Source of the DNA: Eledone cirrhosa
Taxonomy: Eukaryota
Direction of reading: 5' to 3'
Length of the DNA stretch: 64,000 bases
Assembly (NCBI GenBank): GCA_964016885.1
Contig: OZ024743.1
Coordinates: 341,062,001 to 341,126,000 of the forward strand
A program made the translations under genes and the position numbers. Shown piece after piece: positions 1,465 through 63,475 of this stretch; the first letter of the stretch is position 1; every line of letters begins with the position of its first letter. The notes under the pieces were generated by a model. The model had not been told where the DNA came from, did not search any database, and saw only the letters and a program-made list of their open reading frames with translations.

Positions 1465-4400
1465 ACTCTTTGAGTCTGGAAAGTTTGAAATGAATATCAA
1501 GCCACTACCTGCAGCCTCAGATATTCAGGACGTATCGGAAGGTTCTTGCTGTTCCCAGCAAGAATGCCTTTTGAAGCGTTCCAAAAAGCGCGAAGGGGCC
1601 AATTTTCTTTAACCATCCCTGGAAACATTTTGACATAGTCCCTAGTGCGCCTATGACAATCGGGATCACTTTGACTTCATGGCAGTTCCAAATCCTTTTT
1701 ACCTCCCACTTTAAGTCTTGGTATCGGTTAATTTTCTCCCTCTCCTTCTCTTGCACCCTCGTGTCGAATGGGCAGGCCACATCCACAATCAGGCACGTTC
1801 TTTATCCTTTGTCCAAAACCACCAGGTCAGGCCTATTGTGTTCAAGTTTCTTGTCCGTCTGTATCCTAAAATCCCACAGCACCTTCACCTGATCGTTTTC
1901 TATTACCGCCTCTGGCTTATGCTCATACCACTTCTCAGAATGTGGTAAATTGTTTACTTTGCATAGGTGCCAGTGGATCACCCTGCCCATCACATCATGT
2001 CTCCAGCCCTTATACTGAGTCTGGGCTATGTGTTTACACTCGGATACAATGTGAGCCACAGTCTCCTCTCTCTCTCCACAGATCCTGCACAGTGGGCTAG
2101 CCTCCTCCTTGTAAATATGGTGTTTCAACGACTTCGTTTTGAGGGCCTGCTCTTGCGCAGCCATTAGCATTCCTTCTGTAACCTTTTTAAGGTCTCCTCT
2201 TTTCAACCAGTTCCATGTCTATGGATCTCTGAATTCAGTTTTCTCAAAGAAGGTTCTATGAAGGGATTTTTCATTTAGGCTGCTCTTTCACCTTGTTGTT
2301 ATTTCCTCCTTGGACATCTCCTGGTCTATTGTCCTCTCCTTCAGTACAATTCTGAGATTTGGCTCCTTACTATCAGTCACGTATTTGTGTAGGTTGTTTT
2401 TCTCCATCTGAACACAGTCTTCTATGCTGATAAGACCTCTTCCACCTTCAGATCTCCTTAAGTAGAGTCTATCGACATCACTCCTCTTGTGGAACATGTT
2501 GTAGATAGTCAATAGCTTCCTAGTCTTCCAGTCGATTTCTTTTTGTTCAGCAACATTCCATTTCAGAATTCCCGCACTGTACCTAATAATAGACACAGCT
2601 CGGGAATTTACTGCACTTATGGCATTCCTACTGTTCAGATGTGACTTTAATACGCTCCTTACTCTCCGAATGTATTTAGATCTTATCAATTCCTTCATTT
2701 TTTGTTCTTGATGTCATCAGCCTCCAGAACACCCAAATACTTGTATCCTTCTTCAGTGTCAATTTCCTTTATCATCTCACCTGTTGGTACCTGGATTCCG
2801 TTGCTTCTGCTCAATTTACCCCTCTTCATCACAAGGACTCCACACTTACTAATACCAAATTGCATACATAATCATTGCTGAAAATACGAACAGTGTCAAC
2901 AAGCACATCCAACTCCTTCTCACTTTTCCCGAAGAGCTTAAGATCGTCCATGAAGAGGAGGTGATTGATGGTAAGCTCTCCCTTTCCCAACTTGTATCCT
3001 GCTCTCACTTTTCGCAGTATAATGATCAAGGAAAGGACAAACAACAGAGGGGACAGGCTATCTCCCTGGAAGAACCTCTCTTGATCTTCACGCCTCCCAA
3101 GGATTCTCCAGCTGATGTTTCCAGGACTTCATACTTTTGCCCAACAACTGTCTGATGTTATCTGCCACCTTGAAGATCTCTAGGCTTTCGGTGATCCAAG
3201 AATGAGGCACCATGTCAAATGCCTTTTTGTAGTCTATCCATCCCATGGCAAGACCAGTGTGTCTCCTCTTGAAATTCCTTATTATCATCTTATCAATAAG
3301 TAACTGGTCCTTTGTACCACGGGACTTCTTTCGGCATGCTTTCTGTTCGTCCGGTAACAAGTTGTTTGTGTGGAGGTCATGGTAGATTTCCTCAGACATA
3401 ATGCTTGTCAACAGTTTCCACATTACGGACAGACATGTGATAGGTCTATAGTTGGAAACATCATTACCCTTGATTCGGTCTTTCATTACCAGAACTGTGG
3501 TACCCTTTGTCAACCACTCTGGTACCTCACCTGACATCAAGCAGTCATTAAACATGGTTGTCAGCTTCGGGTGGAGGGATGTTATATTTTTAATCCATAC
3601 CCCTGCACACCATCTGGGCCTGGTGATTTCCAGTTGGTTAGTTTTTTGGCTTGCCCCTTAAGAGTTTCAACTGTGATACTCAAATCAGTTTGTTGGTGTG
3701 CCTGTTCACTAATCTCCTTTTGTACTGTCTCAATGCACACTGCCTGGTCATTATGTTTAACATCCTGCTCCCATATTCCTCTCCAGAATGTCTTAGTTTG
3801 TTCCGCCTCAGGGATCAAGTCGTTGCCTCTTTCTTTCCCTTCAAGCTGTCCAAACAGCATCTTCTGGTTGTTGTCAAACATGCGGTTCTGTCTATACTGA
3901 CTGACTCTGCTCTCGTATCGCCTAATGTTTGCACTCTTTGCTACAATGCGTTGCTTCAGTTCCTCTATGATAATATTTAGCTTTTTCCTCCTAGTTTTGT
4001 ACTTTATTTCCAGTCTATTTTTAGTGTCTATGTTTTTTAGTGTCCCATTCAGTATGGACTCAAGCTTTCCAATGTCATTTCTCATTTCCCTGATTTGACT
4101 ATTCAGTCGTTTCTTCCACCAAGGTTCTGATCTTTCTTGTTTGTTGTTTCCTCTCACTTATATGCCAAGTAATTTCCTCACCGCATTTGTTGTTGCTTTG
4201 AGGATATTGTTGCACTGGTGAAGGCTCCTTGCCTCAAGGTATGGGATGACTTTGTTTACCTTAACTGTTGTTTCTTTTAACTTTTTCCTGTCTACAAATC
4301 TTAGGTTCATAGGTTTCCCACTATCATTGCTCAATTCATCTACCACTAAGTTCAGGATATCAACCAAATCTTGTCCTAGCCCGTCAGCATTCATCTCCTC

Positions 4401-7820: not shown

Positions 7821-10800
7821 ATGGCCGTACTTAGAATAGGCAGTATACATGTACGTGGCCTGTGGTCATCTTGGAAGCAGGGTCACCTGCTCAATGACCT
7901 CAGCTCACTAAACATAGATGTGGTGGTCATCAGCGAGACCAGAATCTCCGAAGCACGAGCCTTCGCACCGATCTTCGGCGGTTACGATGTATACGCATCT
8001 CCCAGCCGTCCAGGATCGGGGGGAGGGGTTGCCGTGCTTTTTCGGAGAGGCTTGGATCTCGCCATACGGGCCATCTTCCTGGACCCAGAAGGTAAGTCGG
8101 TGGTGCTGGACGTGACCGGCAGCGAAGGCAATGCTTTCAGGCTAGTAACCATCTACGCCTCAACAGGGGCAGGACGGCCAGATATCTTCAGACGTCTAGG
8201 GACCTTTCTCGGAACGTCCCGCTCTTTAGTGTTAGTAGGGAAACTGATAAGGCGAGTGTAGGTTGTACACAATTTAAAGTAGTCGACTACACGGACCACA
8301 AATTTGTGATATGTGAAGTTGATTTAGATAGAATACATAGGCAAGGGCTCGCCTACTGGAAGCTGAACGCGTCGTTCCCAGCGCGCAAAGGTTACAGAGA
8401 CCGGATTAGCGAATTAGTTAAGCGTGCATTGTCGCGCGCGATCGTCAACAGCAGGTGGTGGTTTACCCTGAAAAGGGCTATTAGAGTAGAATCGATAAGG
8501 TTTAGCAAAGGAGTAGTGATAGAGGAAAATAGAGTAGAGCGAGAGTTAGTTAGAAAGCTAGAAGGGGCGTTTAGGACAGGCATCGCAACCGACGTGCTTG
8601 CGGCGAGATTGGCACTCAACCAGTTCTTCCACGCAAAGCATGAAGGCTACGTTGTCAGAGCTAGAACGCGTGCTCTAAGTCACGAGGGGATGAAAGCCGT
8701 TCTATGGGCCCGTGTGGTGGAGGCGCGACGTGGCAACAAGTCCACAATTCGGTTTTTGCTTGATCAAAACGGGCGCATGTTGCTCGAAACCGAGCAGATG
8801 TGTGCGGCTGTTCAACAGCACTTTGCTCAATTGTTCGGGAGTGGCGGCGGGCCGGATCGGAGTATGGACTTCGGTGCATACCTCGACGGACTGTCGCGGC
8901 TCTCGACGACCGCAGCGCAGTGCTGCGAATAGCCGATAACAGCAGGTGATATACGGGGCGCGATGTCTGACTGCACGAGGGGTAAATCGCCAGGTTTGGA
9001 TGGTCTGCCATACGAGCTTTATGCGTATATGCCAGACTTGTTCGGCCACCTCTTGGCAGATGTCTACTGCAACTGGCAGCAGAAAGGGAGCATTCCCAGT
9101 TTTGTGAGCGGTGGCACTGCTGAGAAAAGATCCGAACAAGGTGGACGTTATAGACAAATTCAGACCCATAACTCTGCTCAACGCAGAGTTTAAGATTGTG
9201 GCGAAGGTGTTAGCAAAGATATTGACGCTTGTCGTCGGTGATCTGGTGCGAGAGGCGCATATATGCGCCATCTCGGACAGATCCATCCACGACAACCTCC
9301 ATCACTGCAATACATCATAGGGTGGTTAAGGAAGCTGGCACGGGTGGGGCCCTGATCAACTTGGATCAATCTAAAGCATTTCATAGGGTCGACCATTGGT
9401 ACCTGGTTGCGGTCATCGAGGCGGCCGGTTTCGGGCCCGTTTTTAGGGGCTGGATCGCTGCGTTGCACAGTGACATCTGTTCGATTGTGAGGGTGAATGG
9501 TCACCTGTCGCAGCATTTCAGCACCATGCGCTCGGTCCGCCAGGGTCGCCTCCTCTCGTCCCCCATGTACGTACTGGCCATAGAGCCGTTACTACACAAA
9601 TTGGAGACGATGAGGGGGGGGGGGGGGGGTCCCACGCGAACTGGGATGCGGGGGATCTGTGTCAGCTTACGACGACGACGTCACCGCGGTGGTGTCGACC
9701 ACCAAACACGTCCAGATGCTCGGCACCGCTCTCAAGGAATACGAAGCGGTGACAAGATCAAAGATAAACCAGGAAAAGTCGGTGGGCTTGCAACTCCGCA
9801 CCTGGAGAGGCAAGTCAATGCCCGCCTACCGCGACGTGGGGCGCTGGACGGAAGGACCGGTTAAATTGCGCGGGGTCTGGTTCGGTCCGGACCTCCAGAT
9901 GGAGAAAAACTGGAGCGAGGTGACGAACAGGGTGGCCTCTCTCACCCAGAAATGGGCCAAGAGGAGGCTGTCTCTGAAAGGTCGGGCGGAAGTGGCGAAT
10001 GCGTACATAGCGTCCGTCATCTGCTACAGCCTGACCGTCGTACCTTGCCCCCGCCCAACTCTGACCAAAATGGAGCGCCTTCTCTTCCGCTTTTTGTGGA
10101 AGGGACGTGCTCCCATGGTCAGACGATCCATTTGCTGTCAACACCCGTTGCGTGGAGGACTAGGCATGTCGTGGCTGATGATGCGCAAACATGCGCTGAG
10201 GCTGCGACATCTCTGGTGTTTCCTTGACGGTGAACAGGTGTGGTCACCGTTTGCCAGACGCGCTTTTCCCCAGCTCGTCTCCTTGACGGAGCTGCAGTCC
10301 TGGATCAGAAAAAGGCCGAGGGATAGCGCTTGGAAGCTGGAATGTCTCCAAACTCTCACCGCTCCATACCGGTTAGGCACTAATATCGGTGGAACATCCA
10401 CCTCGGCGTTCTATAGAGGGCTAGTGGAGGGAAAGAGCGACGAAGTTCTCGGAGAGACCCTGGGCGTCGAAGACGATCAGCTGTTCGCTCTCTTCAAGAG
10501 AACTTTCAGACCGGGGCTTATGGACAACTTCCCGAAATCCCTGGCCTGGCAGTGCTACCGGGGAGCGTTTCCGGTTCCGGATAAGCTCTACAGGCACGGA
10601 GGCGCAGGGCGACGAAACCGTCCTGCGCGCACTCGTTCACTGCCCGAGGATTGCTGACTTGTGGAGCTGTATCGAACAACTGCTGTCGCGTGTAGGACGG
10701 ATCCGGTTATCAACTGAGTCCATTGTGCAGATAGCCCCGTCATCCTCCTTTAAAGAGGAGGAAGGGCAGGCAGTTTCCATCTGCCTGGTGGCCATGGCGA

Positions 10801-13570: not shown

Positions 13571-16500
13571 ATGGCCGTATTAAGAGTAGGATGTTTAAAT
13601 GTTCGAGGCCTGGGATCGTCCTGGAAGCAGGGTCACCTGCTCAACGACCTCATGTCTCTAGAAATGGATGTAATTGCCGTCAATGAGACCAGGATTTCCG
13701 ACACGCGCGCACTAACCCCCCATTTTCGATGACTATCAGATCTTTGCATCTGTTAGTCGGCCGGGAAGGGGAGGCGGGGTGGCAGTGCTGTTTAGGAAAG
13801 GCCTGGATCTCGAGGTAAGGTCGATCTTCCGGGACCCGGACGGGAAGTTGGTAGTCTTGGACGTGAACAATAACGAAGGTGGTGCCTTTACTGTTAGCGG
13901 GGGACTGGAACGGCATCTTAGACGCACGCTGGGACTGTATGGGAGTATCCGATAGGAGCGGGGGGTGCGAAAGTTTCAAGAACCTGATCAGCCAGTTCCA
14001 ACTGGCTGACAGGTACCGACTAGATTTCCCTAATGCGCCAGTGTGGACCTGGACTACCCGCATAGGGTCATCTAGATCGTATATAGACAGGATATTCATT
14101 AGGAAAATAGACAAAAATAGTGTAAGCTGTCCACGTTTTGAAACGGTTGCCTATTCAGATCACAAGTTTGTGATCTGTATGGTCGACCTAGATAAGACGC
14201 GTAGGTTAGGACCTGGCTACTGGAAGCTAAACATGTCATTTCCGGCACGTAAGGCTTACATGGACCAGGTCAACAATTTAGTTAAGAAAAGGTTGACAAG
14301 GGGAGTCGTCAACAATAGATGGTGGGGGGCTCTCAAAAGAGAGATTAGAGCAATCTCGATAGCGTTTAGCAAAGAAGTAGCGTTAGAGTAAAAAAAGAAA
14401 GGAGGGGGAGTTGGTAGATAAGTTAGACGAGGCTATTGGTAGTGGCATTGCAACTGATGTTCTAGCGGCGAGAATGGCATTATACCATTTCTTCAATACG
14501 AAACACGAAGTTAGCATTGTCAGAGCTAAGGCGCGTGCTCTGAGAAACGAGGGAACCAAAGCTATTCGATGGGCCCGCGTGGCAGAGGCGCAGCGTGTTA
14601 ATAAAACCACGATTCGGTCTTTGACGGACCGAGGCGGACACGAGCTGAGCGATTTCAAGCGGATGTGTGAGGCCTTTCGCCAACATTTTGCTTGGTTGTT
14701 CGGGGGAAATAGCGGGTCAGAGATGGTGGCGGACTTCAGTCCCTACCTCGATAGCTTGCCGCAACTCTCGACGGCTGACGCTAGGCGCTGCGAAAGGCCA
14801 ATTACTTATGCCGAGATTCAGGATGCCCTTTTCGGCTGCATGAGGCGCAAGTAACCCGGTTTGGATGATCTACCCTACGAGCTTTACGAAAATATGCCAG
14901 ACTTGTTCTCCAATCTCCTCGAAGCCCTCTACTGCAACTGGCAGCAAAACGGGAGTATTCCCAGGTCTGTGAGCCGGGGCGTAGTGACGCTGATAAGGAA
15001 AGACGAGAACAAGAGTGACACATTAGACAAGTTCAGGCCCATAACTCTGCTCAACACAGAGTTTAAGATTTTGGCCAGGGTGTTAGCGAAGAGGTTGGCG
15101 CTTGTCGTCGGGGATTTGGTTGGGGAGGCGCAAACTTGCGCAATCCCAACCAGGTCCATACACGACAACCTCCACCTAATGCGAGACATCATAGAGAGGG
15201 TAGGGTGTAAACCTGGCTTCGGTGGGGCTCTGATCAACTTATATCAATCGAAAGCATTCGATAGGGTCGACCATCGGTACCTGGAGGCTGTCCTCAAGGC
15301 GGCTGGCTTCGGCTCCGTCTTCAGGAGCTGGATCGCTGCAATGCACAGTGGCACCTGCTCGATGGTCAAAATTAATGGCCACCACTCACAACCGTTTCGA
15401 GTCTTCCGATCGGTCCGTCAAGGGTGCCCTCTCTCATCCCCTCTGTACGTATTGACTCTCGAGCCTTTACTGCGGAAGCTGGAGCTGTTGCAGGGCATCC
15501 CGCTCGAACTGCGACGCGGAAACGCTGTGTCGGCTTATGCGGACGACATCACAGTCCTGGTGTCGGACACCTCAGAAATCGAGGTGGTCGGCAACTTATT
15601 GGAGGCATATGAAAGGTTGACGGGAGCAAAACTTAACCCGGAAAAGTCGGTGGGCTTGCAACTCGGCACCTGGAGAGGCAAGTCCATGCCGTCCAACAGC
15701 GTCGTGGGGCGTTGGACGGACGGACCGGTAAAGTTGCTCGGGGTTTGGTTCGAGCCAGACCTCCAGGTGGATAAGAATTGGGACGAGGTGACGGGCAGGG
15801 TAGCCAGTCTCACCCAGAAATGGGCTGGGATGAAGCTATCACTGAAAGGTCGGGCGGAGATGGCGAACGCGTACATCGCGTCCGTCATCTACTACCGTCT
15901 GACCGTCGTCACTTGCCCCCGTTCGTGCCTCGCCATCTTGGAGCGGCTCCTCTTCAAATTCTTGTGGAGGGGTCATGTTCAGTTGGTGAGGCGGTCCATC
16001 TGCCGCCAGCACCCTCTACGTGGAGGGCTGGGCATGCCGTGGCTAATGATGCGCATGCACGCGCTGAGGCCACGGCATCTCCAGATATTCTGCCTAAACG
16101 GTGAACAGGTGTGGTCGCCGTTTATCAGACAGGCCTTTCCGCAGCTCGTTTCTTTGACTGAGCTGCAGTCCTGGGTCAAGAAGTGACCGAGACTGGGTGA
16201 CTGGCATCTGGAATGTTGCCAGGCACTCACTGCCCTCTACCAGGTGGGCAATGCGGTCAGTGGAACTTCCACTCTCGAGTTCTATAGAGGATTTGAGGTG
16301 GGAAAGTGCGAAGACGCACTCGGAGAGGCTCTGGGAGTCAACGATGTCGAACTAAGCAGTCTGTACTGGAGGACTTTCGAGCCGGGGACGATGGATAATT
16401 TCCAAAAATCCCTCGCTTGGCAGTGCTACTGGGGGGCACTGCCGGTTCGAGATAAACTCTACAGGCACGGAAGTGCTGTCAGACGGACCTGCCCGAGATG

Positions 16501-23145: not shown

Positions 23146-23180
<35 letters not shown>

Positions 23181-23187
<7 letters not shown>

Positions 23188-23602
23188 TAACAGATTAAAG
23201 TTTAAGCAAAGAATCGCTGCTTTCACCCTAACGGGATCTTCTGAAACTAACAAAGTCAATCTGTAAACGCAGAAGTGGATATTTCAAAAAACGTTGCAAC
23301 CAGAGGAAGACAGGAAGATGATACTTTGGTTCGTGGAAACGTTTCCTGGCAAAGAACGGGAAAAAACGAATAATACGTCATTAATAGGAGCGGTGAAAAA
23401 CAATTACGTGCAAAGACAGAACCACGTTTATGGTATAAAAGAAGTCGTAGACTAATATTCTATTAGGTGGTTCATAGAGACGTTCTCTAGCAATGAACGG
23501 AAAAAACGAAGATAATACGTCATATGTGGAGCGTGAAGAACAATTGCACGCAAAGACAAAACCACGTAAATGGTATAGCTGAAGTCGTAGACTAAAATTC
23601 TA
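23181..23602 (-). mobile_element. Non-coding dispersed repeat carrying a CAGAAGA-core hammerhead (23199-23248) and an internal ~140-bp tandem duplication
   Basis: Paralogs at about 46425-46608, 55776-55860, 56013-56083, 56773-56843 and 62725-62876. The repeat ends about 25 nt after the predicted cleavage site, usually running into TA-rich sequence. Confidence 0.8.
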
Positions 23603-23869
23603 ACTAGGAAACCGAATGATTCTCCGCTTCAGAGTTAAGAATAAAGTAAATAAAATACAATACAGAGGTAATTGATATTAAATAAATACATACACGCATC
23701 GAAATACGTACATACACAAGCATACGCGAAAACACTCGCCATATGTATACAAAACCACGCACATATAAATATGTGTGTGTGCGTGTGGGCGTGTATACAA
23801 ATAAATAAGTAATTAAATAAACGTATATAAATAAATAAATACGTATATGACAAGCGAACACACATACCT

Positions 23870-24012
23870 ACATATAAATATATGTATTTATATATATATA
23901 TATATATATATATGTACGTATGTATGTATATATATGTATGTAAGTATATATATGTATGTATGTATATATATATGTATATATATATATATGTATGTATGTA
24001 TGTATATATATG

Positions 24013-24044
<32 letters not shown>

Positions 24045-24080
24045 TATATATATATGTATGTATATATATATATATATGTA

Positions 24081-24135
<55 letters not shown>

Positions 24136-24661
24136 GTATATATGTATATATATATATATGTAAGTATATATGTATATATATATATATGTATGTATATATG
24201 TATATATATGTATGTATATATGTATATATATATATGTATGTATGTATATATGTATATATATATATGTATGTATGTATATATATATATATATATATCAGGG
24301 TTGCAGGTGTTATATCAGAGTTTTCCTTCTCCTAGAATGATGTTGACTTGTTCTTCTTTTTGGTAAATATCATCTTGGTTAAGAGAGTGGGACTGGCTTT
24401 GTGCAGTGCCTTTGCTCACTATAAAAGCTTCACGGCACAGGCATTGCTTTATATCTGGAGATCTCTCTGCACTTGTCGTCACATGGTACCATGGGCCCAG
24501 CACTATGTGTCAATAATTGTCACAAGTGTAGTGTTTGTTACAGAGTTTTCAAGTCGCTGGCTGGACTAAAAAGTCACACCCGTTCGGCGCATCGGTAGGG
24601 GTTCTCCTATATGGATATAAAGTAGTGGCCGTACTCGAAAACGAGTTGGCAGCCACCATAT

Positions 24662-25326: not shown

Positions 25327-25746
25327 GAAATATAAGAATCAAAGAACTGTTCAAAACATTATTATGTTTACCTACCTAAGTGCCTCCACTACACGTATCT
25401 CTCTGCCACACTATATAAACAAGACGCACGTGCTTGCCACACATATAACATTTGCACTATATAACCGCTTATCTTCATCTTGTATTTTAACCTGTATTTT
25501 TGATTTTTGATTGTACCTTTTAATATGAATGTAATCTCGAAGTGTGTACTGCCACTCTAAATTCTGTAATGAATGTTGACCCACAATATTTGCATATGTA
25601 TCGGTATGTCTCTTGGCTGAAAAGGAGGTCATATAACTGTCCATTCATTAATAAATTGCTCCGAAGAATCCAAACCTCGGTTTGGAGGAAACAGCTGTAA
25701 GCACAATAATGTTTTGAACAGTTCTTTGATTCTTATATTTCATATA
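25322..25746 (+). mobile_element. Penelope-like non-autonomous unit with ~42-bp terminal inverted repeats and a hammerhead
   Basis: tatatgaaatataagaatcaaagaactgttcaaaacattatt at the left end is the reverse complement of 25705-25746. Confidence 0.75.
25657..25703 (+). ncRNA. Minimal hammerhead with variant core CCGAAGA
   Basis: tgct-CCGAAGA-atccaaacc(tc)ggtttggag-GAAA-cagctg-TA-agca. Confidence 0.7.
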
Positions 25747-33502: not shown

Positions 33503-33702
33503 TTAGGGTAATTAATATCAACAAGGAAGGCCTGCAAATGTGTGTCAGAGTAATTATTGAGTTAAAATTATCAACAAACGCGGAATCTCCAAGGGACCAG
33601 CTTGTAGTTGTTGTTGTTGTTGTCGTCGTCGTCATTATTGTTGCCGTTGCTGTTGTTGTTGTTGCTGTTGTTGTTGTTGTTGTTCTTCTTCTTCTATTGT
33701 TG

Positions 33703-34976
33703 TATCGCGGCCGTCATCTACTACCGCCTGACCGTCGTACCTTGTCCTAAGCCCCGCCTGACTGCGCTGGAGCGTTTGCTCTTTCGCTTTTTGTGGAAGG
33801 GACGCACTCCGATGGTCAAACGGTCCATCTGCTGTCAACACCCGCTACGTGGAGGGCTGGGCATGCCGTGGCTGATGATGCGCAAACACGCGCTCAGGCT
33901 ACGACATCTCCACCTCTTCCTCTACGGTGATCAGGTGTGGTCGCCGTTTGCTAGACACGTCTTTCCCCAGATCGTCTCCTTGACGGAGCTGCAGTCCTGG
34001 GTCAAGCGAAGACCGAGAGGGAGCGCTTGGAGACTGGAATGTCTTCAGGCGCTCACAGCCCTCGACCAATCGGGCAATATGATCGGTGGAAACTCCACCT
34101 TGGCGTTCTATAGAGGATTAGTGGAGGGAAAGAGCGACGACGTACTTGGAGAAACTCTAGGCGTCGACGAAAATCAGCTAGCCAATCTCTTCGGAAGGAC
34201 TTTCGGGCCGGGGCCTATGAACAATTTCCAGAAATCTCTGGCCTGGCAGTGCTACCGAGGAGCTTTGCCAGTTCGGGATAAACTCTACAGGCATGGAGGT
34301 GCCGTCAGCCGGGCACGTCCGAGATGCGCGCAGGGCGACGAAACCGTCCTTCACTCACTCGTCCAGTGTCCGAGCATTCCTGACTTGTGGGTTTATGTCG
34401 AACACCTGCTGTCACGTGTAGGACGGATCCAGCTATCAGCTGAGTCCATCGTGAGGATGCCCCGCCCCCTTCCTTTAGCCGGGAAGGGCAGGCAGATTTT
34501 ATCTGTCTGGTGGCCATGGCGAAAGAGATAGTATGGTGGACACGTTTGAAAGGGCTGAAGACGAGCACTTACCTCTTCAGTGATGCCCTGATTAACTTTT
34601 TCAAATTTCATTTGAAAAGGAAAATGAGGGTAGAGAGGGAAGTGCTCTCTTCCCAGCATTTTGTTGAAAGATGGGTGAGAGAAGCAAGTATGGCCCGAGT
34701 GAATGGGCCTACCCTGAGTATGTGTCTGTAAATTAAAGGTGGAAAACTGGGGGAGGGCACTTGCCCTGGTGGTCCGGGTCACTGTGGCCTTTTAATGGGC
34801 TTTCTCCACAAATGTCCCTCCGAAGTCTCCCCCCTATTGGGGAATTTTTCATTGTTATTTTTTATTACATCCTCTGTTTGTTTTACACGCAGAAATGCCC
34901 ATTTGCACCGTCCTGTATTGTCCTGTACTGTTCTTAATGTCTAATTTATGTAAACCCTTGTGGTTAATAAAGAAAG

Positions 34977-36678: not shown

Positions 36679-38576
36679 ATGACCTCACTCAGAATAGGCA
36701 GCATAAATGCGCGTGGCTTGGGTTCGTCATGGAAGCAGGGCCACCTGCTCAACGACCTCAGGTCACTAAACATACATGTAGTGGCCATCAGCGAGACCAG
36801 ACTCTCCGAAGCACGGGCCTTCGCACCGATCTTCGGCGGCTACGATGTGTACGCATCTCCCAGCCGTCCTGGATCGGGGGGGGGGGGAATTGCTGTGCTT
36901 TTTTATGGATCTCGCCATACGGGCCATCTTCCTGAACCCAGAAGGTAAGTTGGTGGTGCTAGACGTGACCAGCGGAGACACGCAAACTTTCAGGCTAGTG
37001 GCCGTCTATGCCTCGACAGGAGCAGGGTGTCCTGATTTCTTCCTGCGTCTGGAGACCTTTCTTGGAACGTCCCGCTCTTTAGTGTTAGTGGGCGACTGGA
37101 ACGGGATCTTAGATGCACGCTGGGACTGTGTGGGATTAGCGGATAGGGGAGGAGGGTGCAAGAGCCTCACCAACCTGCTCAGGCGTTTTGAACTGTCTGA
37201 CAGGTACCGATTGGATTTCCCGAATGTGCCAATGTGGACTTGGACAAACCGCATAGGGTCATCCAGATCATATCTCGATAGAGTATTTTGTAGGGAAATA
37301 GATAGGTCTAGCATAGGCTGTCCACAATTCAAGATAGTCAGCTACACGGACCAGAAATTCGTGATCTGTGTGCTTGACTTAGATAGGCTTCATAGACGAG
37401 GATCCGGCTACTGGAAGCTAAACGCGTCCTTACCAGCGCACAAGGCCTACAGAGACCGGATTAGCGAACTAGTTAAGCGGGCTTTGACGGGGGCCATCGT
37501 CAGCAACAAGTGGTGTTTTGCTCAGAAAAGAGCGATTAGAATAGAGTCCATTAGGTTTAGTAAGGCTTTAGCAATAGAGAAAAATAGAGCAGAGGGAGAA
37601 CTAGTTAGAAAATTAGACGAGGCGCTTAGCAAAGGCATCGTGACCGACGTACTTGCGGCGAAATTGGCCCTTGACCAATTCTTCAATGCAAAGCACGAAG
37701 GCTGCGTTGTCAGAGCTAGGGTGTGTGCTCTCAGACACGAGAGGACGAAAGCCGTTCAATGGGCCCGAGTGGCGGAGGCGCGTCGTGGCAACAAAGCCAC
37801 GATCCGGTCTTTGGTGGACCACGACGGGCGCATGCTACTCGATCCCGGGCAAATGTGTGAAGCTTTTCAGCGACACTTCGCTCAGCTGTTCGGGGGCAGC
37901 GCGGACCGGATCTAGGGATGGACTTTAGTGTCTACCTCGACAGACGGCCACGGCTCTCGGCCACTGAGGCGGAGTGTTGCGAAAATCCTATAACAGCCGC
38001 TGAGGTACGGGAGGCAATGGCTGGCTGTACAAGGGGTAAATCGCCTGGTTTGGATGGTCTGCCCAATGAACTTTACGTACAGATGCCAGACTTGTTCGGA
38101 GACCTCTTGGCGGACGTCTACTGCAACTGCCAACAGAACGGGAGAATTCCCAGCTCTGTGAGCCGAGAAGCGGTGGAGGTGGTGAGAAAGGCTCCGAACA
38201 AGAGGGATAACATAGATAATTTCGGGCCCATAACTCTGCTAAACACAGAGTTCAAGATTTTGGGCAAGGTGCTAGCAAAGAGGTTGGCGCTTGTCGTTGG
38301 TGGTCTGATGGGAGAGGCGCAGACATGCGCCATTTCCGACAGATCTATCTACGACAACCTCCACCTCATGCGATACATCGTAGAGAGGGTAGCTAGAGAA
38401 CCTGGCACGGGTGGGTCCTTGATCAATTTAGATCACTCGAAAGCTTTCGATAGGCTTGACCATCTTTACCTAGCGGCAGTCCTGAGGGCGGCTGGCTTTG
38501 GGCCCGTCTTCAGAGGCTGGATCGCTGCCATGCACAGCGACATCTGCTCTGTGGTGAGATTGAACGGTCACCTTGA
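36679..38576 (+). pseudogene. LINE ORF2: APE domain plus N-terminal half of the RT
   Basis: INARGL, ISETR, VGDWN, SYLDRVF, KSPGLDG and DHSKAFD motifs. Confidence 0.9.
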
Positions 38577-40333
38577 CATATATATGCTGTCTTCAGCAGA
38601 CAGCATGTATATGTGAAAGTATGTATATTTCCTCTGATAATTTGTAATATTTTTACATAGATCTATATGATATACATACCAACACACATATACATCCTAG
38701 AAACGATCGTAAAATGATGATTTTTTAAATATAAGGAACTTATTCTCTGTTTTCATTTCATTGTTTTTGTTAATTTAACTTGATTCTGTTTTCCTATGAT
38801 TTTCATCGACAATTTTTGAATGCATCTTCTATTGTCATGATATTTGGATTACATTGAGTTCTTCATACGGATTGGACACTACCGTATATTTTGGTAGAGT
38901 TATCTACACCCCCCCCCACATATATATATATATATATATATAATTAGAATTGTATACTTATATATATATTGTCTGGTGCGTTTTTCTATAAAACTATTTA
39001 ATGCAGATCGACATTGCTGACTTATTTTTATGTCTTAGTTAGGGTAGTAAATGCAGTGGGTACAAGAACTTCAGGGGCATTAGACAGGTAGGAGGAAATC
39101 GAAAAAGTATCAAGGGCGTCTGTTTTACCGTTGCTTAGCTCAAAGTCAAATTTCATTGTACTGATTTGGATTCAATGTATTCTAAAGATGGGATGCCCCA
39201 TCTTGTTCAGTAATATATCATTTCCGTATTTAAGCTGATATGGTATGACATAAGGTAGGTTTGTTTGCTATTTGAAGCAGAGAGAGAGAGCAGCAATATT
39301 TAGGGATAACGTGTTGCTGTAGTTAGAAAGAATGGAAAGAAAAGATGCCGATAGTCAGATCGGGTAAATGAAACTGTTTCCTCTGGATGTAAGCGGGATT
39401 TAAATTTAGAATGCAGAGTACAAACAAATTTTGCAAATCATTCATTCGGACAATATAACAATTCCTTCTATCCGCGGTCTCTTGAATAGTACTTTATTTA
39501 TCGACTCCCAAATAATGAAAGCTAGGTTGATCACTATGGGATTTGTATTCACAACGTATAGTCCGAGAACAAGTACAACGTCATTTAGACCGACGCTCAA
39601 ATATCCGTCAGTTTCAGCGCTATGTAGCAGGAAACAGATATTCAAAATGTCGGAGATCTGTTCCGAATACATGAAAAAGGAATACATTACTGACGGCATC
39701 CAAGTGTCAGGCAGTGCTGGTTACTAGAACGCGAGATTAAGACTATTACGCAAGATATTCTTTAGTTCATACCATGGCTCTCACCAAAATATCCACTACG
39801 CAATTTCACTGAAAATGCTTTGTTTGTCCAGAATCTATTAAAGAAATGATTAGTCCATGTGCCACGCTGTAGGATCGAATCCTAAACCACGTAAGTGCCA
39901 AGAGAATGTCTTAACCTTGCTCTTACGCTTACACACACATAAGGCACATAAATGATCTTAAATAAATCTCCTTAAATGGTTGGTCTTCAAATACAGCTGT
40001 GACTGCATAAAGAGAATAATTACATCGATTTGAACTTAAACAGTAATTACTACACAGAAGAAAAATATATCTACAATTTTCCAACATATTTTTTTGCCAA
40101 TCTCAAAATAATTATTAATTTAAATGCAGAAAACAAAAATTACCCTATTAGTTTGCGAGAACATATCAATTTTTTCCACCTTATCTCTCACTATGTACGC
40201 CCCCCGCTCACTCCCCCTCTTTCTATTTTCTATCTATTTGGATATCTCCTCTTCTGTTTTATTTGCTTCAATACGTGTATGTGTGTGTGTATATATATAT
40301 ATTTTGCTGTCCTTGTGCTAAAAGTAGAAATAA

Positions 40334-46101: not shown

Positions 46102-46912
46102 TGTATATCTAAAACAGAGAATGTCTGTCTGTCTGACTCCCTAAAACTCGAGAGCCACCCAACCGATTGTTTTCAAACTTTACACATGTAATACTTATGG
46201 TCGTGTGAGTGTTTTGAGCATATACATATCAAATATTCAATGCCATAGGGACCGCATTAGGCGCCGGAACGTCGCGTCCTAATAATATCTATCTGTATGT
46301 CTGGTGTCTGCATTACGGCATTATGATATCGCTATCTGTGTGTGTATATATATATATATGTATATATAGTGTGTGGGTATATATATGTATATTCTTCTCA
46401 TTACTGATGTATTATGTTAGCTATTTTCCGTTCATTGCCAGGAAACGTCTTACCGAACCAAAGTATCGTCTTCCTCTTTTCCTTCGGTTGCAACGTTTTT
46501 CGAAATATTTACTTCTGCGTTCACAGATTGATTTTTTTAGTTTCAGAAGATCCCGTAAAGGGTGAAAGCAGCGATCCTTCGCTTAAACTTTAATCTGTTA
46601 TTTTAATATATATATAAATATATATAAATATATATTCGTGTCCAGATATTTTTGCATACACAATAACAAAATATAAACAAATGTATTTATTTCACGAGGC
46701 TCGGCAGCAGCAAAAACAACAACATAAAAGAAAGGGAACGCAAATACATGCTTTTGAAAAATCTTAATGGAAAATGATTTGCCTATTCACCCAAGGCGAC
46801 TTCACTTTTTATTAGGACTTCTGCATCAATTGATGAACATACGACGAAACTGTTTCAGAAAGGAGAGATAAACATGTTTAGAATCCCGAGCAACGCCGGG
46901 CCATTCTGCTAG
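46102..46912 (+). mobile_element. Non-autonomous Helitron containing a nested hammerhead-repeat copy
   Basis: 5' ...tatatctaaaacagagaa(tgtc)n...aaccgatt; 3' hairpin cccg-agcaacgc-cggg followed by CTAG|T at 46909-46913. Confidence 0.75.
46539..46589 (+). ncRNA. Hammerhead with variant core CAGAAGA
   Basis: agttt-CAGAAGA-tccc(gtaaa)gggt-GAAA-gcagcgatccttcgc-TT-aaact. Confidence 0.6.
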
Positions 46913-51427: not shown

Positions 51428-52132
51428 ATGTATATATATATATATATATATACATACATACATACATACATACATACATACATACATACATACATACAAT
51501 GGCGACCGTTGTGGTCAGTGTCCGATAATTGGACGTGTGTAATTACGGCTTACATGAAGGCAACATACCATATATTGGAAAAAGTTGAGCTACATTACGC
51601 GGTAAGATTACATACAATAATTCTACATAAGTGTTTGAACTGTAAGTGTGTTGTAAAACACCTATTTATATGAACGATACATACACTTATGATATATGAA
51701 CGATACATACACTTTAACATATAAATGCAACGTTGTTATATTACATTTATAAAGAAATATAAAAGTAACGTTTTCGATTCAGAAACAAAAATATAAGTGT
51801 TTGAACTGTGAATGTTGTGAATATGTTGTAGAACACCTATTTATATGAATGATACATAAACTTTAACATATAAATACAGCATTGTTATATTATATTACAT
51901 TCGTAAAGGAATATACTAAGTAACGGTTCTTTTTGTTCTCGATTCAAACGATTCAAGAACAACGTTTAAAACACAGTTGTAGAATTAAAAACTAACTGAA
52001 AAGAAATATTACCCAAGCTGTGAATAACTTTAAATTTGATTCTGACAGAACTTTGTCGTAACTTTTAAAGAAGATCATCGACTATTTAAAAAAAAAATAA
52101 ATACAAAATATTAGTGAATAGACGAACTCATC

Positions 52133-55635: not shown

Positions 55636-55717
55636 CAATTTCTTTTCTTTTACAACCTTGCCACCAGGAAGGTGGCCGGTCAAAAAAATATACTCGAAAT
55701 TAAGAGAAAGAGAAAAC

Positions 55718-55777
<60 letters not shown>

Positions 55778-55787
55778 TGACCTTGTT

Positions 55788-55838
55788 AGTTTCAGAAGAT
55801 CCCGTTAAGGGTGAAAGTTGCGATTCTTTGCTTAAACT
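55788..55838 (+). ncRNA. Hammerhead with variant core CAGAAGA (stem III partly mutated)
   Basis: agttt-CAGAAGA-tccc(gttaa)gggt-GAAA-gttgcgattctttgc-TT-aaact. Confidence 0.55.
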
Positions 55839-55858
55839 TTAATCTGTTATTTTAATAA

Positions 55859-55950
<92 letters not shown>

Positions 55951-56080
55951 GTACATATATACATACATACATACACATATATATAAATATATTTTTATTA
56001 AGATAAATCTTCTTCAGGAGATCCCGTTAAGGGTGAAAACAGCGATTCTTTGCTTAAACTTTAATCTGTTATTTTAATAA

Positions 56081-56112
<32 letters not shown>

Positions 56113-56723: not shown

Positions 56724-57870
56724 TATATATACGTACATATATATAAATATATATTTATTAAGATAAATCTTCTTCAGGAGATCCCGTTAAGGGTGAAAGC
56801 AGCGATTCTTTGCTTTAATTTTAATCTGTTATTTTAATAAATATTTGTTCTACATTTCTTATATATTTGATATATATTTATCCTTATCGATCCCTCTTTA
56901 GATTTTAGTCTTCAAATTTATTATTATTACTATATAAATATATATATACACTCTAGTATTTTAATTCTTAAATATATATATATATACGTATATATGTGTG
57001 TATGTCTATACACACCACACACACTAACACATTTATATATATATATATATATATATATTTGTATTCCTTTGTGAATGAGTGTTTGTGTGTTAATGGTGAT
57101 TTTTTGTTGTTGTTGTGGTATTTTCAATAGTGAAAGAATATATCAAATGCGTCGTTTATCTGACGCCTCGTAAATATAAAATATTTCCAAGTAAGCTAAA
57201 TGTATATAGTGACTCCAAAACATAAATTCAAAACTATCTCTTTTATTCAAAGAAGTTTCATTTCGTATGGAAAGTAATTCTACCAGACTAATCAATAAAT
57301 CTTGACGGATTTAGTCGTCTATAATATAAAAAATACATAAGGTTCAGGTCAAATGCCTTCGTAGCAAAAATGAGATTATCACATTATATTTACAAATATG
57401 AAAATAGTAAAGTTTACCTTTAACTTTTAGCAAAAACAAAACAAAAACATAAATAAACTTGAAAGAGTTAATGTGTATGGGATAAACAATATAGATACAT
57501 GAAATAGCAGACGAGTGAAAATCACTTGACAATTTATATTCTGCGTGTCAGACAAAAAAAAATCTATATTTGCTATATTTTCAAATAGAGAAAGTAAGTA
57601 ACAGGAATCAAATAATAACATTTAAGTGTATATATAACAGTTAAAAACCAAATAGCATGCGAATGTAAACAGATGAAAAAAGCTAACTAAGCAGTTATTG
57701 TACGCTAAGTATAATTTACATGCGTCATAGTGTTAGCTGTCATATGTGTTGTTATTTTTATGGCGAATAAACTGGAGAAAGTTTGTAAAGAAAATACGCC
57801 ACAAGGATGAGCAGAAATTAAAATATTCTAAAATAACTACATTTTGTCACCATAGGGAAACATTGGTGGA

Positions 57871-62700: not shown

Positions 62701-63475
62701 TGTGAACACTTCAGGTTATACGACATTCCTAACGTCTTCACGAACCAAAGTATCATCTTCCTGTTTTCTTTCGATTGCAACGTTTTTCGAAATATTTAAT
62801 TCTGCGTTCACAGATTGAGTATTTTAGTTTCAGAAAATCCTGTTAAGAGTGAAAGCAGCGATTCTTTGCTTAACCTTGATTTTACTTTTGACCGGCCACC
62901 TTCCGCAATGGAAGGTTGTAATGTAAAGAACATTTTCGTTGTTCCTTGTTTAATCGTTTATCCTTTGATTCGCAATTTTGAAGGATCCAGATATCGCTTT
63001 CATTTATAGCTTATGAATTACTTAGCTACATTCCTTTTTTACATTTCCAAGTTCAATCATGCTTTGGTCCAAGTTGGTAGTTATAGTTACAATAATAATA
63101 GTTATGAAGCTGAACATGTAGTTTTCGTACTGAATCTGTACACTCACCAATGATCTTTAGGTATCTTCTGGATTTTTCTTACTAAATTGACATCGAGTGG
63201 GCAGCTTATCTACAACATCTCTAGTAGAGATTAAAGGAGAGACACAAAATAATTACAAAAGTAATCACTTAGGAGGTCAAAGAATGTGTGACGAAAGAAA
63301 TGTGACAATCAAAAACCACTAAACACACATTTGGTTATTAAACTAACCGTCTGGTGAATCCAAGAAGTGCGTGTGTTTTATTGTCACCATGAATTTCCCA
63401 AACTATAACAGTATCTATTTCTACACAGTATCTATTTCTAACAAATATTGCAACACCAATACGAAACGAAGTAAA

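What the first reader, a model, noticed from the sequence alone, without database searches (positions are those of the whole stretch)
23199..23248. Dispersed repeat family with an apparently fixed CAGAAGA (U4A) hammerhead core
Seen: the minus strand reads agttt-CAGAAGA-t-ccc(gtta)ggg-t-GAAA-gcag(cgattct)ttgc-TT-aaact. Stems I, II and III all pair, with a T.T mismatch closing stem II. A at position 4 recurs in every copy (46544, 55793, the decayed copy near 62830, and CAGGAGA in the 56013 and 56773 copies), so it is ancestral to the family rather than post-insertion decay. Copies end about 25 nt after the predicted cut. Inference: a successfully amplified element with a variant or attenuated catalytic core.
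Basis: partly seen in the sequence, partly recalled or inferred. Interest (0 to 1): 0.72.

Follow-up and report, generated by a model that had tools for sequence, protein, structure and literature searches.

The report
Penelope-like retrotransposon hammerhead with A4 core
The motif is the hammerhead-ribozyme module at the tail of a very abundant Penelope-like jumping gene, with A in place of the usual U at core position 4 in about 99% of intact copies, so it is likely a weakened self-cutter that the element did not need in order to spread.

Summary
Window 23199-23248 (-) reads AGTTT-CAGAAGA-T-CCC-GTTA-GGG-T-GAAA-GCAG-CGATTCT-TTGC-TT-AAACT, and the listed copies exist.

The repeat is the 3' end of an autonomous Penelope-like element (PLE). 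The element is about 3.2 kb, has a 713-726 aa ORF (RT plus C-terminal GIY-YIG) and inserts into (TA)n. It shows 5'-truncated copies, inverted 5' fragments and a roughly 28-nt tail after the predicted cut. Its protein motifs match the published Hydra clade.

Genome census of the 28-mer core: A4 20,170; T4 93; C4 or G4 123.

All 33 published Hydra hammerhead rows I read have U4. Most also carry the same U...U flank around stem II, so the "T.T mismatch" is a clade signature and not a defect. A sister family in this genome (43-47% protein identity) carries a canonical hammerhead at the same place. A third family has C4 fixed.

So the motif is a true hammerhead homologue with a fixed U4A. Cleavage is untested: no RNA run is on record, Rfam models do not match, and the lowest-energy fold is not the hammerhead junction.

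The two CAGGAGA copies are one local duplication. The scan had noted other PLE hammerhead repeats in this genome, but not this family.

The parts
23175..23880 (-). 5'-truncated copy of the PLE. It covers element positions 2458-3157 of a roughly 3.2-kb full copy, which is 3' UTR only.
   Evidence: blastn of the full copy L049 against the window gave 91.5% identity over 707 nt. The 5'-truncation staircase was seen among 30 loci.
23199..23248 (-). Hammerhead-type motif, type I topology, core CAGAAGA (A4 at 23242), U.U at 10.1/11.1 (23236 and 23225), GAAA 23224-23221, A15.1-U16.1 (23221/23205), U17 at 23204.
   Evidence: Direct reading and descriptor hit. Layout is the same as the published Hydra-clade hammerheads, CUGANGA-U-stem II-U-GAAA-stem III-U.
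23203..23204 (-). Predicted cleavage site, CUU|AAAC, between U17 (23204) and A1.1 (23203).
   Evidence: Inferred from hammerhead numbering. No RNA data were available to test it.
23176..23203 (-). Tail: the roughly 28 nt between the predicted cut and the common 3' end of the insertions (...TTATTTTAATA).
   Evidence: Common 3' end in 37 aligned copies and in the window copies. It corresponds to the PLE 'tail' at the internal reverse-transcription start described in PMC11167929.
23256..23264 (-). 5' strand of a 9-bp closing helix (ACAGAUUGA) that extends stem I beyond a 7-nt bulge. It pairs with 23190-23198.
   Evidence: Present in the lowest-energy and centroid folds of the 83-nt family sequence.
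23190..23198 (-). 3' strand of the closing helix (UUAAUCUGU), inside the tail.
23327..23602 (-). Two tandem units of about 140 bp inside the element's 3' UTR.
   Evidence: Tandem Repeats Finder: period 140, 2.0 copies, 81% matches. Also present in full copies.
23149..23182 (.). (AT)17 target microsatellite on the 3' side of the copy.
23872..24295 (.). (AT)n / (ATAC)n microsatellite on the 5' side of the copy.
46400..46613 (+). Older 5'-truncated copy (85.6% identity) with A4.
55776..55861 (+). Short 86-nt copy (motif plus tail) with A4, flanked by (TA)n on both sides.
56013..56083 (+). Copy truncated at the last base of stem I's 5' strand, core CAGGAGA.
   Evidence: It is one of only 2 such copies in the genome.
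56773..56948 (+). Local duplicate of the 56013 copy, with the long-tail 3' variant.
62731..62877 (+). Decayed copy (86.4% identity), core CAGAAAA, A4 kept.

Best explanation
The motif is the hammerhead-ribozyme module of a very abundant Hydra-clade Penelope-like retrotransposon whose source copies carry A instead of U at core position 4; it is likely a slow or protein-dependent self-cleaver, and the element's spread likely did not depend on efficient cutting.

Shown:
- The repeat is the 3' end of a roughly 3.2-kb element with one ORF (RT, then C-terminal GIY-YIG endonuclease).
- The element inserts into (TA)n, is usually 5'-truncated, and often has an inverted 3' fragment at its 5' side.
- The motif lies 28 nt from the common 3' end.
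- A4 is fixed in the family.
- The rest of the core and the layout match the hammerheads of this clade.

Inferred:
- Reverse transcription starts at the end of the tail, downstream of the cut site. Every inserted copy therefore came from RNA that was uncut at this hammerhead.
- A weaker core would then cost the element nothing and could even leave more template intact.
For: Element identity:
- The full copies L049:2401-4542(-) and L048:2696-4876(-) hold ORFs of 713 and 726 aa with YRDD and GIY...YIG motifs.
- Four Hydra-clade signatures from PMC8557442 section 11 can be read: DKT (SDKTGN), a CxCX5C linker (CNCRNRADC), CxxC and CxH around E/N (CDLC...CKH), and (TA)n targets.
- The Atlas top hit for the C-terminal 107 aa is a 'GIY-YIG domain-containing protein' cluster, score 0.96.
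- There is a 5'-truncation staircase, inverted 5' fragments and (TA)n flanks.

Hammerhead homology:
- A sister family has a Hammerhead_1 match over Rfam's cut-off 55 nt from its own 3' end.
- That family's ORF is 47% identical over 232 aa (E 2e-69) and 43% over 140 aa (E 6e-40) to ours.
- The published Hydra hammerhead table shows CUGANGA-U-[stem II]-U-GAA-A[stem III]U-U/A/C in most rows. This is the same A7, U10.1.U11.1 and U17 layout as here, at about 30-120 nt from the consensus 3' end.
- Stems I and II have different sequences in the three families of this genome, yet all pair.
- Chance gives 1 descriptor site in 60 shuffles of 64 kb.

A4 is fixed: 20,170 A, 93 T, 123 C or G. No alternative letter reaches 10% at 23242 in contigs of two species labels.

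Constraint on the motif: among 57 copies, the upstream 100 nt hold 5 sites with 12-23 deviating copies, while the motif plus tail (69 nt) holds none. In run X1, only the window's private indel reaches 10% within 23194-23250, against about 10 sites in 23251-23310.

Literature:
- The U-U pair at 10.1/11.1 is a natural, best-tolerated mispair, and a U4C viroid variant cuts poorly in vitro yet is infectious (PMC3088659, section 8 and discussion passages).
- Single mutants in the CUGA turn have low activity (PMC9901934, passages).
- In a Poseidon PLE the hammerhead needs protein to cut, is dispensable for insertion in vitro, and uncut RNA is the main template (PMC11167929, main text).
Against: - No cleavage evidence exists: no RNA run is on record, and contigs cannot show RNA ends.
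- Rfam finds no hammerhead at gathering score in the window, none at E<=10 around the motif, and none in a full copy.
- The lowest-energy fold of the motif pairs UUUC with the core GAAA and uses a shifted stem III register (AGCGA/UUGCU). Its z-scores are -0.06 to -0.66. The canonical sister folds as a hammerhead with z -2.24.
- Stem III here (5 bp, 7-nt loop, not palindromic) differs from the short palindromic stem III of published Hydra hammerheads.
- Pfam finds neither RVT_1 nor GIY-YIG in the ORF at E<1. Domain calls rest on motifs, the Atlas and likeness to the sister family.
- The lower variability of motif plus tail could reflect a role in RT recognition rather than catalysis.
- 'Slow' cannot be told apart from 'dead' with these tools.
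Confidence: 0.7

Rival explanations
1. It is a hammerhead-derived fold that is catalytically dead and kept for another job. Under this reading the last 70-90 nt (closing helix, two hairpins, tail) would serve as the platform that the element's RT/EN protein binds to start reverse transcription, and the hammerhead letters are historical baggage.
For: - The motif and tail are the least variable part of the 3' UTR.
- The strongest predicted helix is the 9-bp closing helix, which reaches into the tail.
- The hammerhead junction is not the lowest-energy fold.
- CUGA-turn mutants have low activity (PMC9901934 passages).
- Naiad PLEs proliferate without canonical hammerheads (PMC8557442 passages).
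Against: - Eleven of the 13 conserved core positions (counting the 10.1-11.1 pair) and all three helices are kept. This holds in this family and in a C4 sister family, across 43-47% protein divergence from the canonical sister. That is not expected if only hairpins mattered.
- In the Poseidon PLE the RNA needed for insertion lies downstream of the hammerhead cut site (PMC11167929).
Confidence: 0.2
2. It is a fully competent hammerhead in which A4 is tolerated. The stable monomeric stem III, the long bulged stem I and the element's protein would compensate for the U-turn change, so the family cuts its RNA at normal rates.
For: - Position 4 is U, C or A in three related families of one genome, while all other core letters stay the same.
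- Natural core variants can keep biological function (PMC3088659).
- The PAc hammerhead is protein-assisted (PMC11167929).
- This family's stem III is longer than in its relatives.
Against: - All single mutants of the CUGA turn were low in a comprehensive mutational scan of a type III hammerhead.
- None of the 33 published Hydra rows I read has a non-U4 core.
- The fold prediction does not favour the junction.
Confidence: 0.08
3. It is a chance resemblance: two unrelated 3'-end hairpins of a retroelement that happen to spell a near-hammerhead.
For: No Rfam hit. Weak thermodynamic support. One core mismatch.
Against: - The descriptor finds 1 site per 60 shuffled windows.
- The motif sits on the sense strand, at the place where this clade's hammerheads lie.
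- It shares their A7, U.U and U17 peculiarities.
- A protein-level sister family has a canonical hammerhead at that place.
Confidence: 0.02

Closest known systems
Hammerheads of Hydra-clade Penelope-like elements (Craig, Yushenova, Rodriguez, Arkhipova 2021, PMC8557442; section 11 and supplementary files S1/S2 read)
   Same: - Type I topology on the sense strand, tens of nt from the element's 3' end.
- Layout CUGANGA-U-[stem II]-U-GAA-A[stem III]U-H, including N7=A in several rows, U.U at 10.1/11.1 and U17.
- Host element: short, single ORF, RT plus C-terminal GIY-YIG, DKT motif, CxCX5C linker, (TA)n target.
   Different: - Position 4 is A here; all 33 Hydra rows read have U.
- Stem III is 5 bp with a 7-nt non-palindromic loop, against 3-4 bp with a 1-3-nt loop.
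- The element has a roughly 1-kb 3' UTR with a 140-bp tandem unit, about 3.2 kb in all against under 3 kb.
- The copy number is very high.
Minimal hammerheads of metazoan PLEs (Cervera and De la Pena 2014, PMC4209133; parts 1-2 of the text read)
   Same: - The motif lies in the terminal repeat region of PLEs.
- There are thousands of dispersed, mostly truncated copies, and inverted pairs occur.
- Low intrinsic activity is expected.
- A core variant fixed in a family has a precedent (U3-A8 in Schistosoma).
   Different: - Those motifs keep U4 and G10.1-C11.1.
- They have a near-absent palindromic stem III and are thought to act as dimers.
- This one has a stable stem III and a non-compensated single change at position 4.
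Natural hammerhead core variants: the U4C viroid variant and U10.1-U11.1 (Perreault et al. 2011, PMC3088659; section 8 and passages read)
   Same: - A change at position 4 that lowers activity in vitro can still be biologically sufficient.
- U.U at 10.1/11.1 occurs in nature and is the best-tolerated mispair.
   Different: - The known position-4 variant is C, in a viroid.
- Two full-text searches found no natural U4A hammerhead described. Of the 11 listed papers that hold 'hammerhead' and 'U4A', I opened none; by their titles they concern other subjects.
Hammerhead of the Poseidon PLE of Anolis (Frangieh et al. 2024, PMC11167929; main text read)
   Same: - The hammerhead lies upstream of an internal reverse-transcription start that defines the 'tail'.
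- The target is AT-rich.
- Both DNA strands are cut and extended, which fits the inverted 5' fragments seen here.
- Cleavage is not needed for insertion in vitro.
   Different: - Different clade.
- Canonical core.
- That hammerhead overlaps the ORF start, and the RT start lies about 85-92 nt after the cut, against about 28 nt here.

Membership tests
Hammerhead ribozyme, type I | Three helices around the core, with stem I open and stems II and III capped | tested here: met
   Direct pairing: stem I 5 bp (plus a 9-bp extension beyond a bulge), stem II 3 bp, stem III 5 bp counting A15.1-U16.1.
Hammerhead ribozyme, type I | The junction is the thermodynamically preferred fold | tested here: not met
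   The lowest-energy fold pairs UUUC with GAAA and shifts the stem III register. z-scores are -0.06 to -0.66. Many natural hammerheads depend on tertiary contacts or protein, so this is weak evidence.
Hammerhead ribozyme, type I | Core strand C3-U4-G5-A6-N7-G8-A9 | tested here: not met
   The core is CAGAAGA: 6 of 7 positions, with A at position 4 in 20,170 of 20,386 otherwise exact copies.
Hammerhead ribozyme, type I | G12-A13-A14, the A15.1-U16.1 pair, and H17 not G | tested here: met
   GAAA at 23224-23221, U16.1 at 23205, U17 at 23204.
Hammerhead ribozyme, type I | G10.1-C11.1 pair | tested here: not met
   It is U.U here. This is the usual state in published Hydra-clade hammerheads and a known tolerated variant.
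Hammerhead ribozyme, type I | Match to the Rfam covariance models | tested here: not met
   No match at gathering score, none at E<=10 around the motif, none in a full copy.
Hammerhead ribozyme, type I | Site-specific self-cleavage after H17 | not testable with these tools
   No RNA run is on record. Contigs show no RNA ends.
Penelope-like element, Hydra clade | Single ORF with a reverse transcriptase followed by a C-terminal GIY-YIG endonuclease | tested here: met
   YRDD and IVYKCKV...AYIGLT can be read in the 726-aa frame. Atlas hit to a GIY-YIG cluster at 0.96. 43-47% identity to the sister PLE. Caveat: Pfam gives no hit at E<1.
Penelope-like element, Hydra clade | DKT instead of DKG; CxCX5C linker; CxxC and CxH around the conserved E and N | tested here: met
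   SDKTGN, CNCRNRADC and CDLC...E...N...CKH are read against the description.
Penelope-like element, Hydra clade | Insertion into (TA)n | tested here: met
Penelope-like element, Hydra clade | PLE insertion anatomy: 5' truncation, an inverted 5'-truncated copy at the 5' end, an optional tail | tested here: met
   Truncation staircase, inverted fragments, short and long tail variants.
Penelope-like element, Hydra clade | Canonical hammerhead near the 3' end | tested here: not met
   The place and layout are the same, but position 4 is A.
Penelope-like element, Hydra clade | Placement inside the Hydra clade in an RT/EN phylogeny | not tested
   The reference proteins appear only in a paper's supplement.

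The most novel reading that the evidence does not exclude
Position 4 of the hammerhead core is free to vary in the protein-assisted hammerheads of Penelope-like elements, and weakening the ribozyme raises the element's success.

In one genome, three sister families carry U4, C4 and A4, with 2,463, 3,749 and 20,170 intact motifs. Reverse transcription starts downstream of the cut, so only uncut RNA can be copied. On this reading the hammerhead acts as a brake, and U4A has released it.
Probability: 0.15. Interest if true: 0.65.

Novelty: new variant of a known kind. Interest (0 to 1): 0.45.

Why it matters
What hammerheads do for Penelope-like elements is still open. They are nearly universal in these elements, cut poorly in vitro, and were dispensable for insertion in the one reconstituted system.

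This genome offers a natural comparison. Three related elements have the same architecture and differ at one core letter (U, C or A), and the two non-canonical ones are the more abundant.

Cleavage assays on these three natural RNAs, with and without the element's protein, would show directly whether the ribozyme helps, hinders or is irrelevant to spread. If the A4 form cuts, it would also add a natural U4A to the short list of tolerated hammerhead core variants.

Tried and rejected
- **SINE or LINE 3' hairpins:** my first reading was dropped once the ORF (RT plus GIY-YIG) and the sister hammerhead were found.
- **Helitron-like 3' hairpin:** considered because of the AT target. Rejected because of the ORF and the 5'-truncation staircase.
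- **LINE partner:** I asked whether the LINE at 52118-55635 (RVT_1, zf-RVT) is the partner of the 55776 copy. It is not. That copy is a separate 86-nt insertion in a (TA)n run.
- **CAGGAGA subfamily:** rejected, only 2 copies in the genome.
- **A U4 'revertant' lineage:** rejected as an amplifying subfamily. In 10 T4 loci, 7-8 have a 5' end or a head-to-head junction within about 10 nt of position 4. There TTC-A-GAA reads TTC-T-GAA on the other strand. T4 (93) is on the scale of C4 plus G4 (123).
- **RNA evidence:** no RNA holder is listed. Contigs of X1, X4 and X5 were laid and show no starts or ends.
- **10 kb upstream of one long copy (L031):** no ORF, because that copy is a 1.3-kb truncated form behind an inverted fragment.
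- **Alignments:** a MAFFT alignment of long flanks timed out. MAFFT on the three families' motifs put the cores one column out of register. Cross-family pairing is therefore by direct reading only.
- **Papers:** Lunse, Weinberg and Breaker (RNA Biol 14:1499) is not held, so I could not check whether it lists position-4 variants. Ruffner et al. 1990 values for U4A are recalled only and are not used.
- **Rfam scans:** searches gave only microsatellite-type weak hits.

Full report
**1. Observation**

The minus strand of window 23199-23248 reads AGTTT CAGAAGA T CCC GTTA GGG T GAAA GCAG CGATTCT TTGC T T AAACT. In hammerhead numbering:
- C3 is at 23243 and A4 at 23242.
- G12-A14 is at 23224-23222.
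- A15.1 is at 23221 and pairs with U16.1 at 23205.
- U17 is at 23204. The predicted cut would fall between 23204 and 23203.

All are on the plus strand and all have A at position 4.

A relaxed hammerhead descriptor of my own allowed any base at position 4, stems of at least 4, 3 and 2 bp, and an optional extra base on either side of stem II. It finds 4 sites in the window and 1 site in 60 dinucleotide-preserving shuffles of the window.

**2. What the repeat is**

A 216-nt query gave 2,862 first-look candidates in the 3.0-Gb genome. The 40 that were scored were 97-100% identical.

Copies share one 3' end and have staircase 5' ends. That pattern fits target-primed reverse transcription.

Long copies lead into an open frame whose last 107 aa gave 56,105 first-look candidates. 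The 150 that were scored were 95-100% identical, with open frames of up to 713-726 aa.

The full copies L049 and L048 show this order:
- a short 5' leader
- an ATG and an ORF of about 713 aa
- a 3' UTR of about 1 kb that contains two 140-bp tandem units
- the motif
- a tail of about 28 nt
- then (TA)n

The ORF has YRDD and GIY...YIG motifs. It also has the marks that Craig et al. 2021 give for their Hydra clade of Penelope-like elements (PMC8557442 section 11):
- DKT in place of DKG
- a CxCX5C linker
- CxxC and CxH around the conserved E and N
- (TA)n targets

Pfam finds no domain at E<1. The Atlas places the C-terminal piece next to a GIY-YIG cluster at 0.96.

Many copies have an inverted 3' fragment abutting their 5' end. 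This is described for PLEs (PMC8557442 passages). It also fits the finding that a PLE protein cuts and extends both DNA strands (PMC11167929).

That note was a lead. The evidence above is my own.

**3. Is the motif a hammerhead?**

Three lines say it is a homologue.

First, position. PLE hammerheads lie in the terminal repeat just upstream of the tail, and the tail marks the internal start of reverse transcription (PMC4209133; PMC11167929). Here the motif ends 28 nt before the common 3' end.

Second, a sister family in the same genome:
- It matches Rfam Hammerhead_1 over the cut-off.
- Its sequence is ATTGCC CUGAUGA GUCC-UAAAUA-GGAC GAAA C-AUU-G UC|GGCUAAU, about 55 nt from its own 3' end in (AT)n.
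- Its ORF is 47% identical over 232 aa (2e-69) and 43% over 140 aa (6e-40) to ours.

Third, the published table of Hydra-clade hammerheads (supplementary file S2 of PMC8557442):
- Most rows show the layout CUGANGA-U-[stem II]-U-GAA-A[stem III]U-H.
- Several rows have N7=A and H17=U. Examples are Hydra-1_aJap, Hydra-1_cRog and Penelope-5_HM.
- The hammerheads lie about 30-120 nt from the consensus 3' end.

Apart from position 4 and a longer stem III, the window motif is that layout letter for letter. Perreault et al. 2011 also report U10.1-U11.1 as a natural variant and the best-tolerated mispair.

Across the three families of this genome the strands of stems I and II differ in sequence but all pair (direct reading):
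- stem I: AGUUU/AAACU, UGCU/AGCA, AUUGCC/GGCUAAU
- stem II: CCC/GGG, UCCAAAC/GUUUGGA, GUCC/GGAC

I could not formalise this, because MAFFT put the cores out of register.

**4. Position 4**

Genome-wide count of the 28-mer TTTC-N-GANGATCCCGTTAAGGGTGAAAG:

| Base at position 4 | Count |
|---|---|
| A | 20,170 |
| T | 93 |
| C or G | 123 |

Further points:
- Old copies in the window (85-87% identity) have A.
- Among contigs of two species labels laid at 85% likeness or more, no other letter reaches 10% at 23242.
- All 33 Hydra rows in the published table have U.

So A4 is a fixed, derived state of this family's source copies.

The few T4 copies are not a revertant lineage:
- In 10 T4 loci, 7-8 have a 5' end or a head-to-head junction within about 10 nt of the site.
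- There the near-palindrome TTC-A-GAA reads TTC-T-GAA on the other strand.

The two CAGGAGA copies are the only two in the genome. They are one truncated copy duplicated locally.

**5. Is it still under constraint?**

Among 57 copies (59 unique, 2 dropped as duplicates of the window region):
- The 100 nt upstream of the motif have 5 sites where 12-23 copies deviate. Their overall mismatch rate is 3.2%.
- The 51-nt motif has a rate of 1.1% and the 18-nt tail 1.3%. No site there has more than 3 deviating copies.

In run X1 (11,355 contigs laid):
- The only variant at 10% or more in 23194-23250 is the window copy's own loop deletion.
- About 10 such sites lie in 23251-23310.

This fits selection on the last 70 nt or so in the source copies. 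It cannot say whether the selected property is catalysis or protein binding.

**6. Against activity**

- Rfam models do not match.
- The lowest-energy fold pairs UUUC with the core GAAA and prefers a shifted stem III. Its z-scores are near zero, whereas the canonical sister folds as a hammerhead with z -2.24.
- In a comprehensive mutational scan of a type III hammerhead, all single mutants in the CUGA turn had low activity (PMC9901934 passages).

On the other side:
- A U4C viroid variant cuts poorly in vitro yet supports infection (PMC3088659 discussion).
- The Anolis PLE hammerhead cuts only with its protein and is not needed for insertion in vitro.
- Naiad PLEs thrive without canonical hammerheads.

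**7. Mechanism proposed**

Shown: all inserted copies contain the motif and the tail in one piece.

Inferred: reverse transcription starts at the end of the tail, as in the Anolis element. An RNA cut at this hammerhead would then lose its start site. Weakening the ribozyme would carry no cost and might spare template.

Counts of intact motifs in the three sister families:

| Core at position 4 | Intact motifs | Pattern length |
|---|---|---|
| U4 | 2,463 | 30-mer (position 4 left open; 98 of the first 100 listed were T) |
| C4 | 3,749 | 35-mer |
| A4 | 20,170 | 28-mer |

Three families, unequal pattern lengths and unknown ages make this suggestive only.

**8. Verdict**

The finding is real. 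It is a known kind of thing, a PLE hammerhead of the Hydra clade, in a new variant with a fixed U4A and a longer monomeric stem III. It has a very large copy number. Whether it cuts is the open and easily testable question.

Noticed in passing
window 25657-25705 (+): A second hammerhead motif with C at position 4: TGCT CCGAAGA a TCCAAAC ctcg GTTTGGA g GAAA C-AGCT-G T A|AGCA, with a palindromic stem III.
- It belongs to a young family: 1,293 candidates, and the 40 collinear matches are 99-100% identical (3 further rows are partial inverted copies).
- Genome counts are 3,749 intact motifs with C4 and 52 with another base.
- Tandem units of 4.15 kb lie on C12.
- Its ORF is a related Hydra-type PLE (DKT, FSLKDHK, YRDD).
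   Followed up: partly
L050-L059 (T4 loci), e.g. L053 1362-1700: Clusters of very short (about 78-nt) motif-plus-tail units in alternating orientation. The head-to-head junctions are centred on the near-palindrome TTC-A/T-GAA, which flips position 4 between A and T. Most 'canonical-core' copies of the family arise this way.
   Followed up: partly
window 56773-56948; L049 (minus strand) downstream of the motif; L031 9940-10000: A minority of copies run about 115 nt past the usual 3' end (AAATATTTGCTCTAC...TTATTACTATATA). This gives a second, long-tail end. Its first roughly 25 nt resemble the element's own 5' leader, as expected if templates are tandem or read-through transcripts.
   Followed up: partly
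L060-L071, L074-L076: A sister PLE family with a canonical type I hammerhead (Rfam RF00163 over cut-off). It has 2,463 intact 30-mers, the same (AT)n targets and inverted 5' fragments, and a 3' UTR of about 1.9 kb.
   Followed up: partly
window 52118-55635 (+), 14855-16186 (+), 33608-34531 (+), 36782-38616 (+), 9226-9864 (+): Several non-LTR (LINE-type) retrotransposon remnants. Pfam hits are RVT_1, zf-RVT and a weak Exo_endo_phos. They are unrelated to the PLE family.
   Followed up: no
window 55664-55674 and 62878-62888; also about 56115: GGTGGCCGGTC and its reverse complement GACCGGCCACC abut repeat ends at two places. They probably mark the terminus of another interspersed repeat.
   Followed up: no
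L008, L035, L026 (bystander hits of my descriptor): Further hammerhead-like motifs from other families. One is a diverged relative of the C4 family that also has C4 (TGCT CCGATGA ...). Another is a long-stem-II family seen once with CCGATGA and once with CTGAGGA.
   Followed up: no
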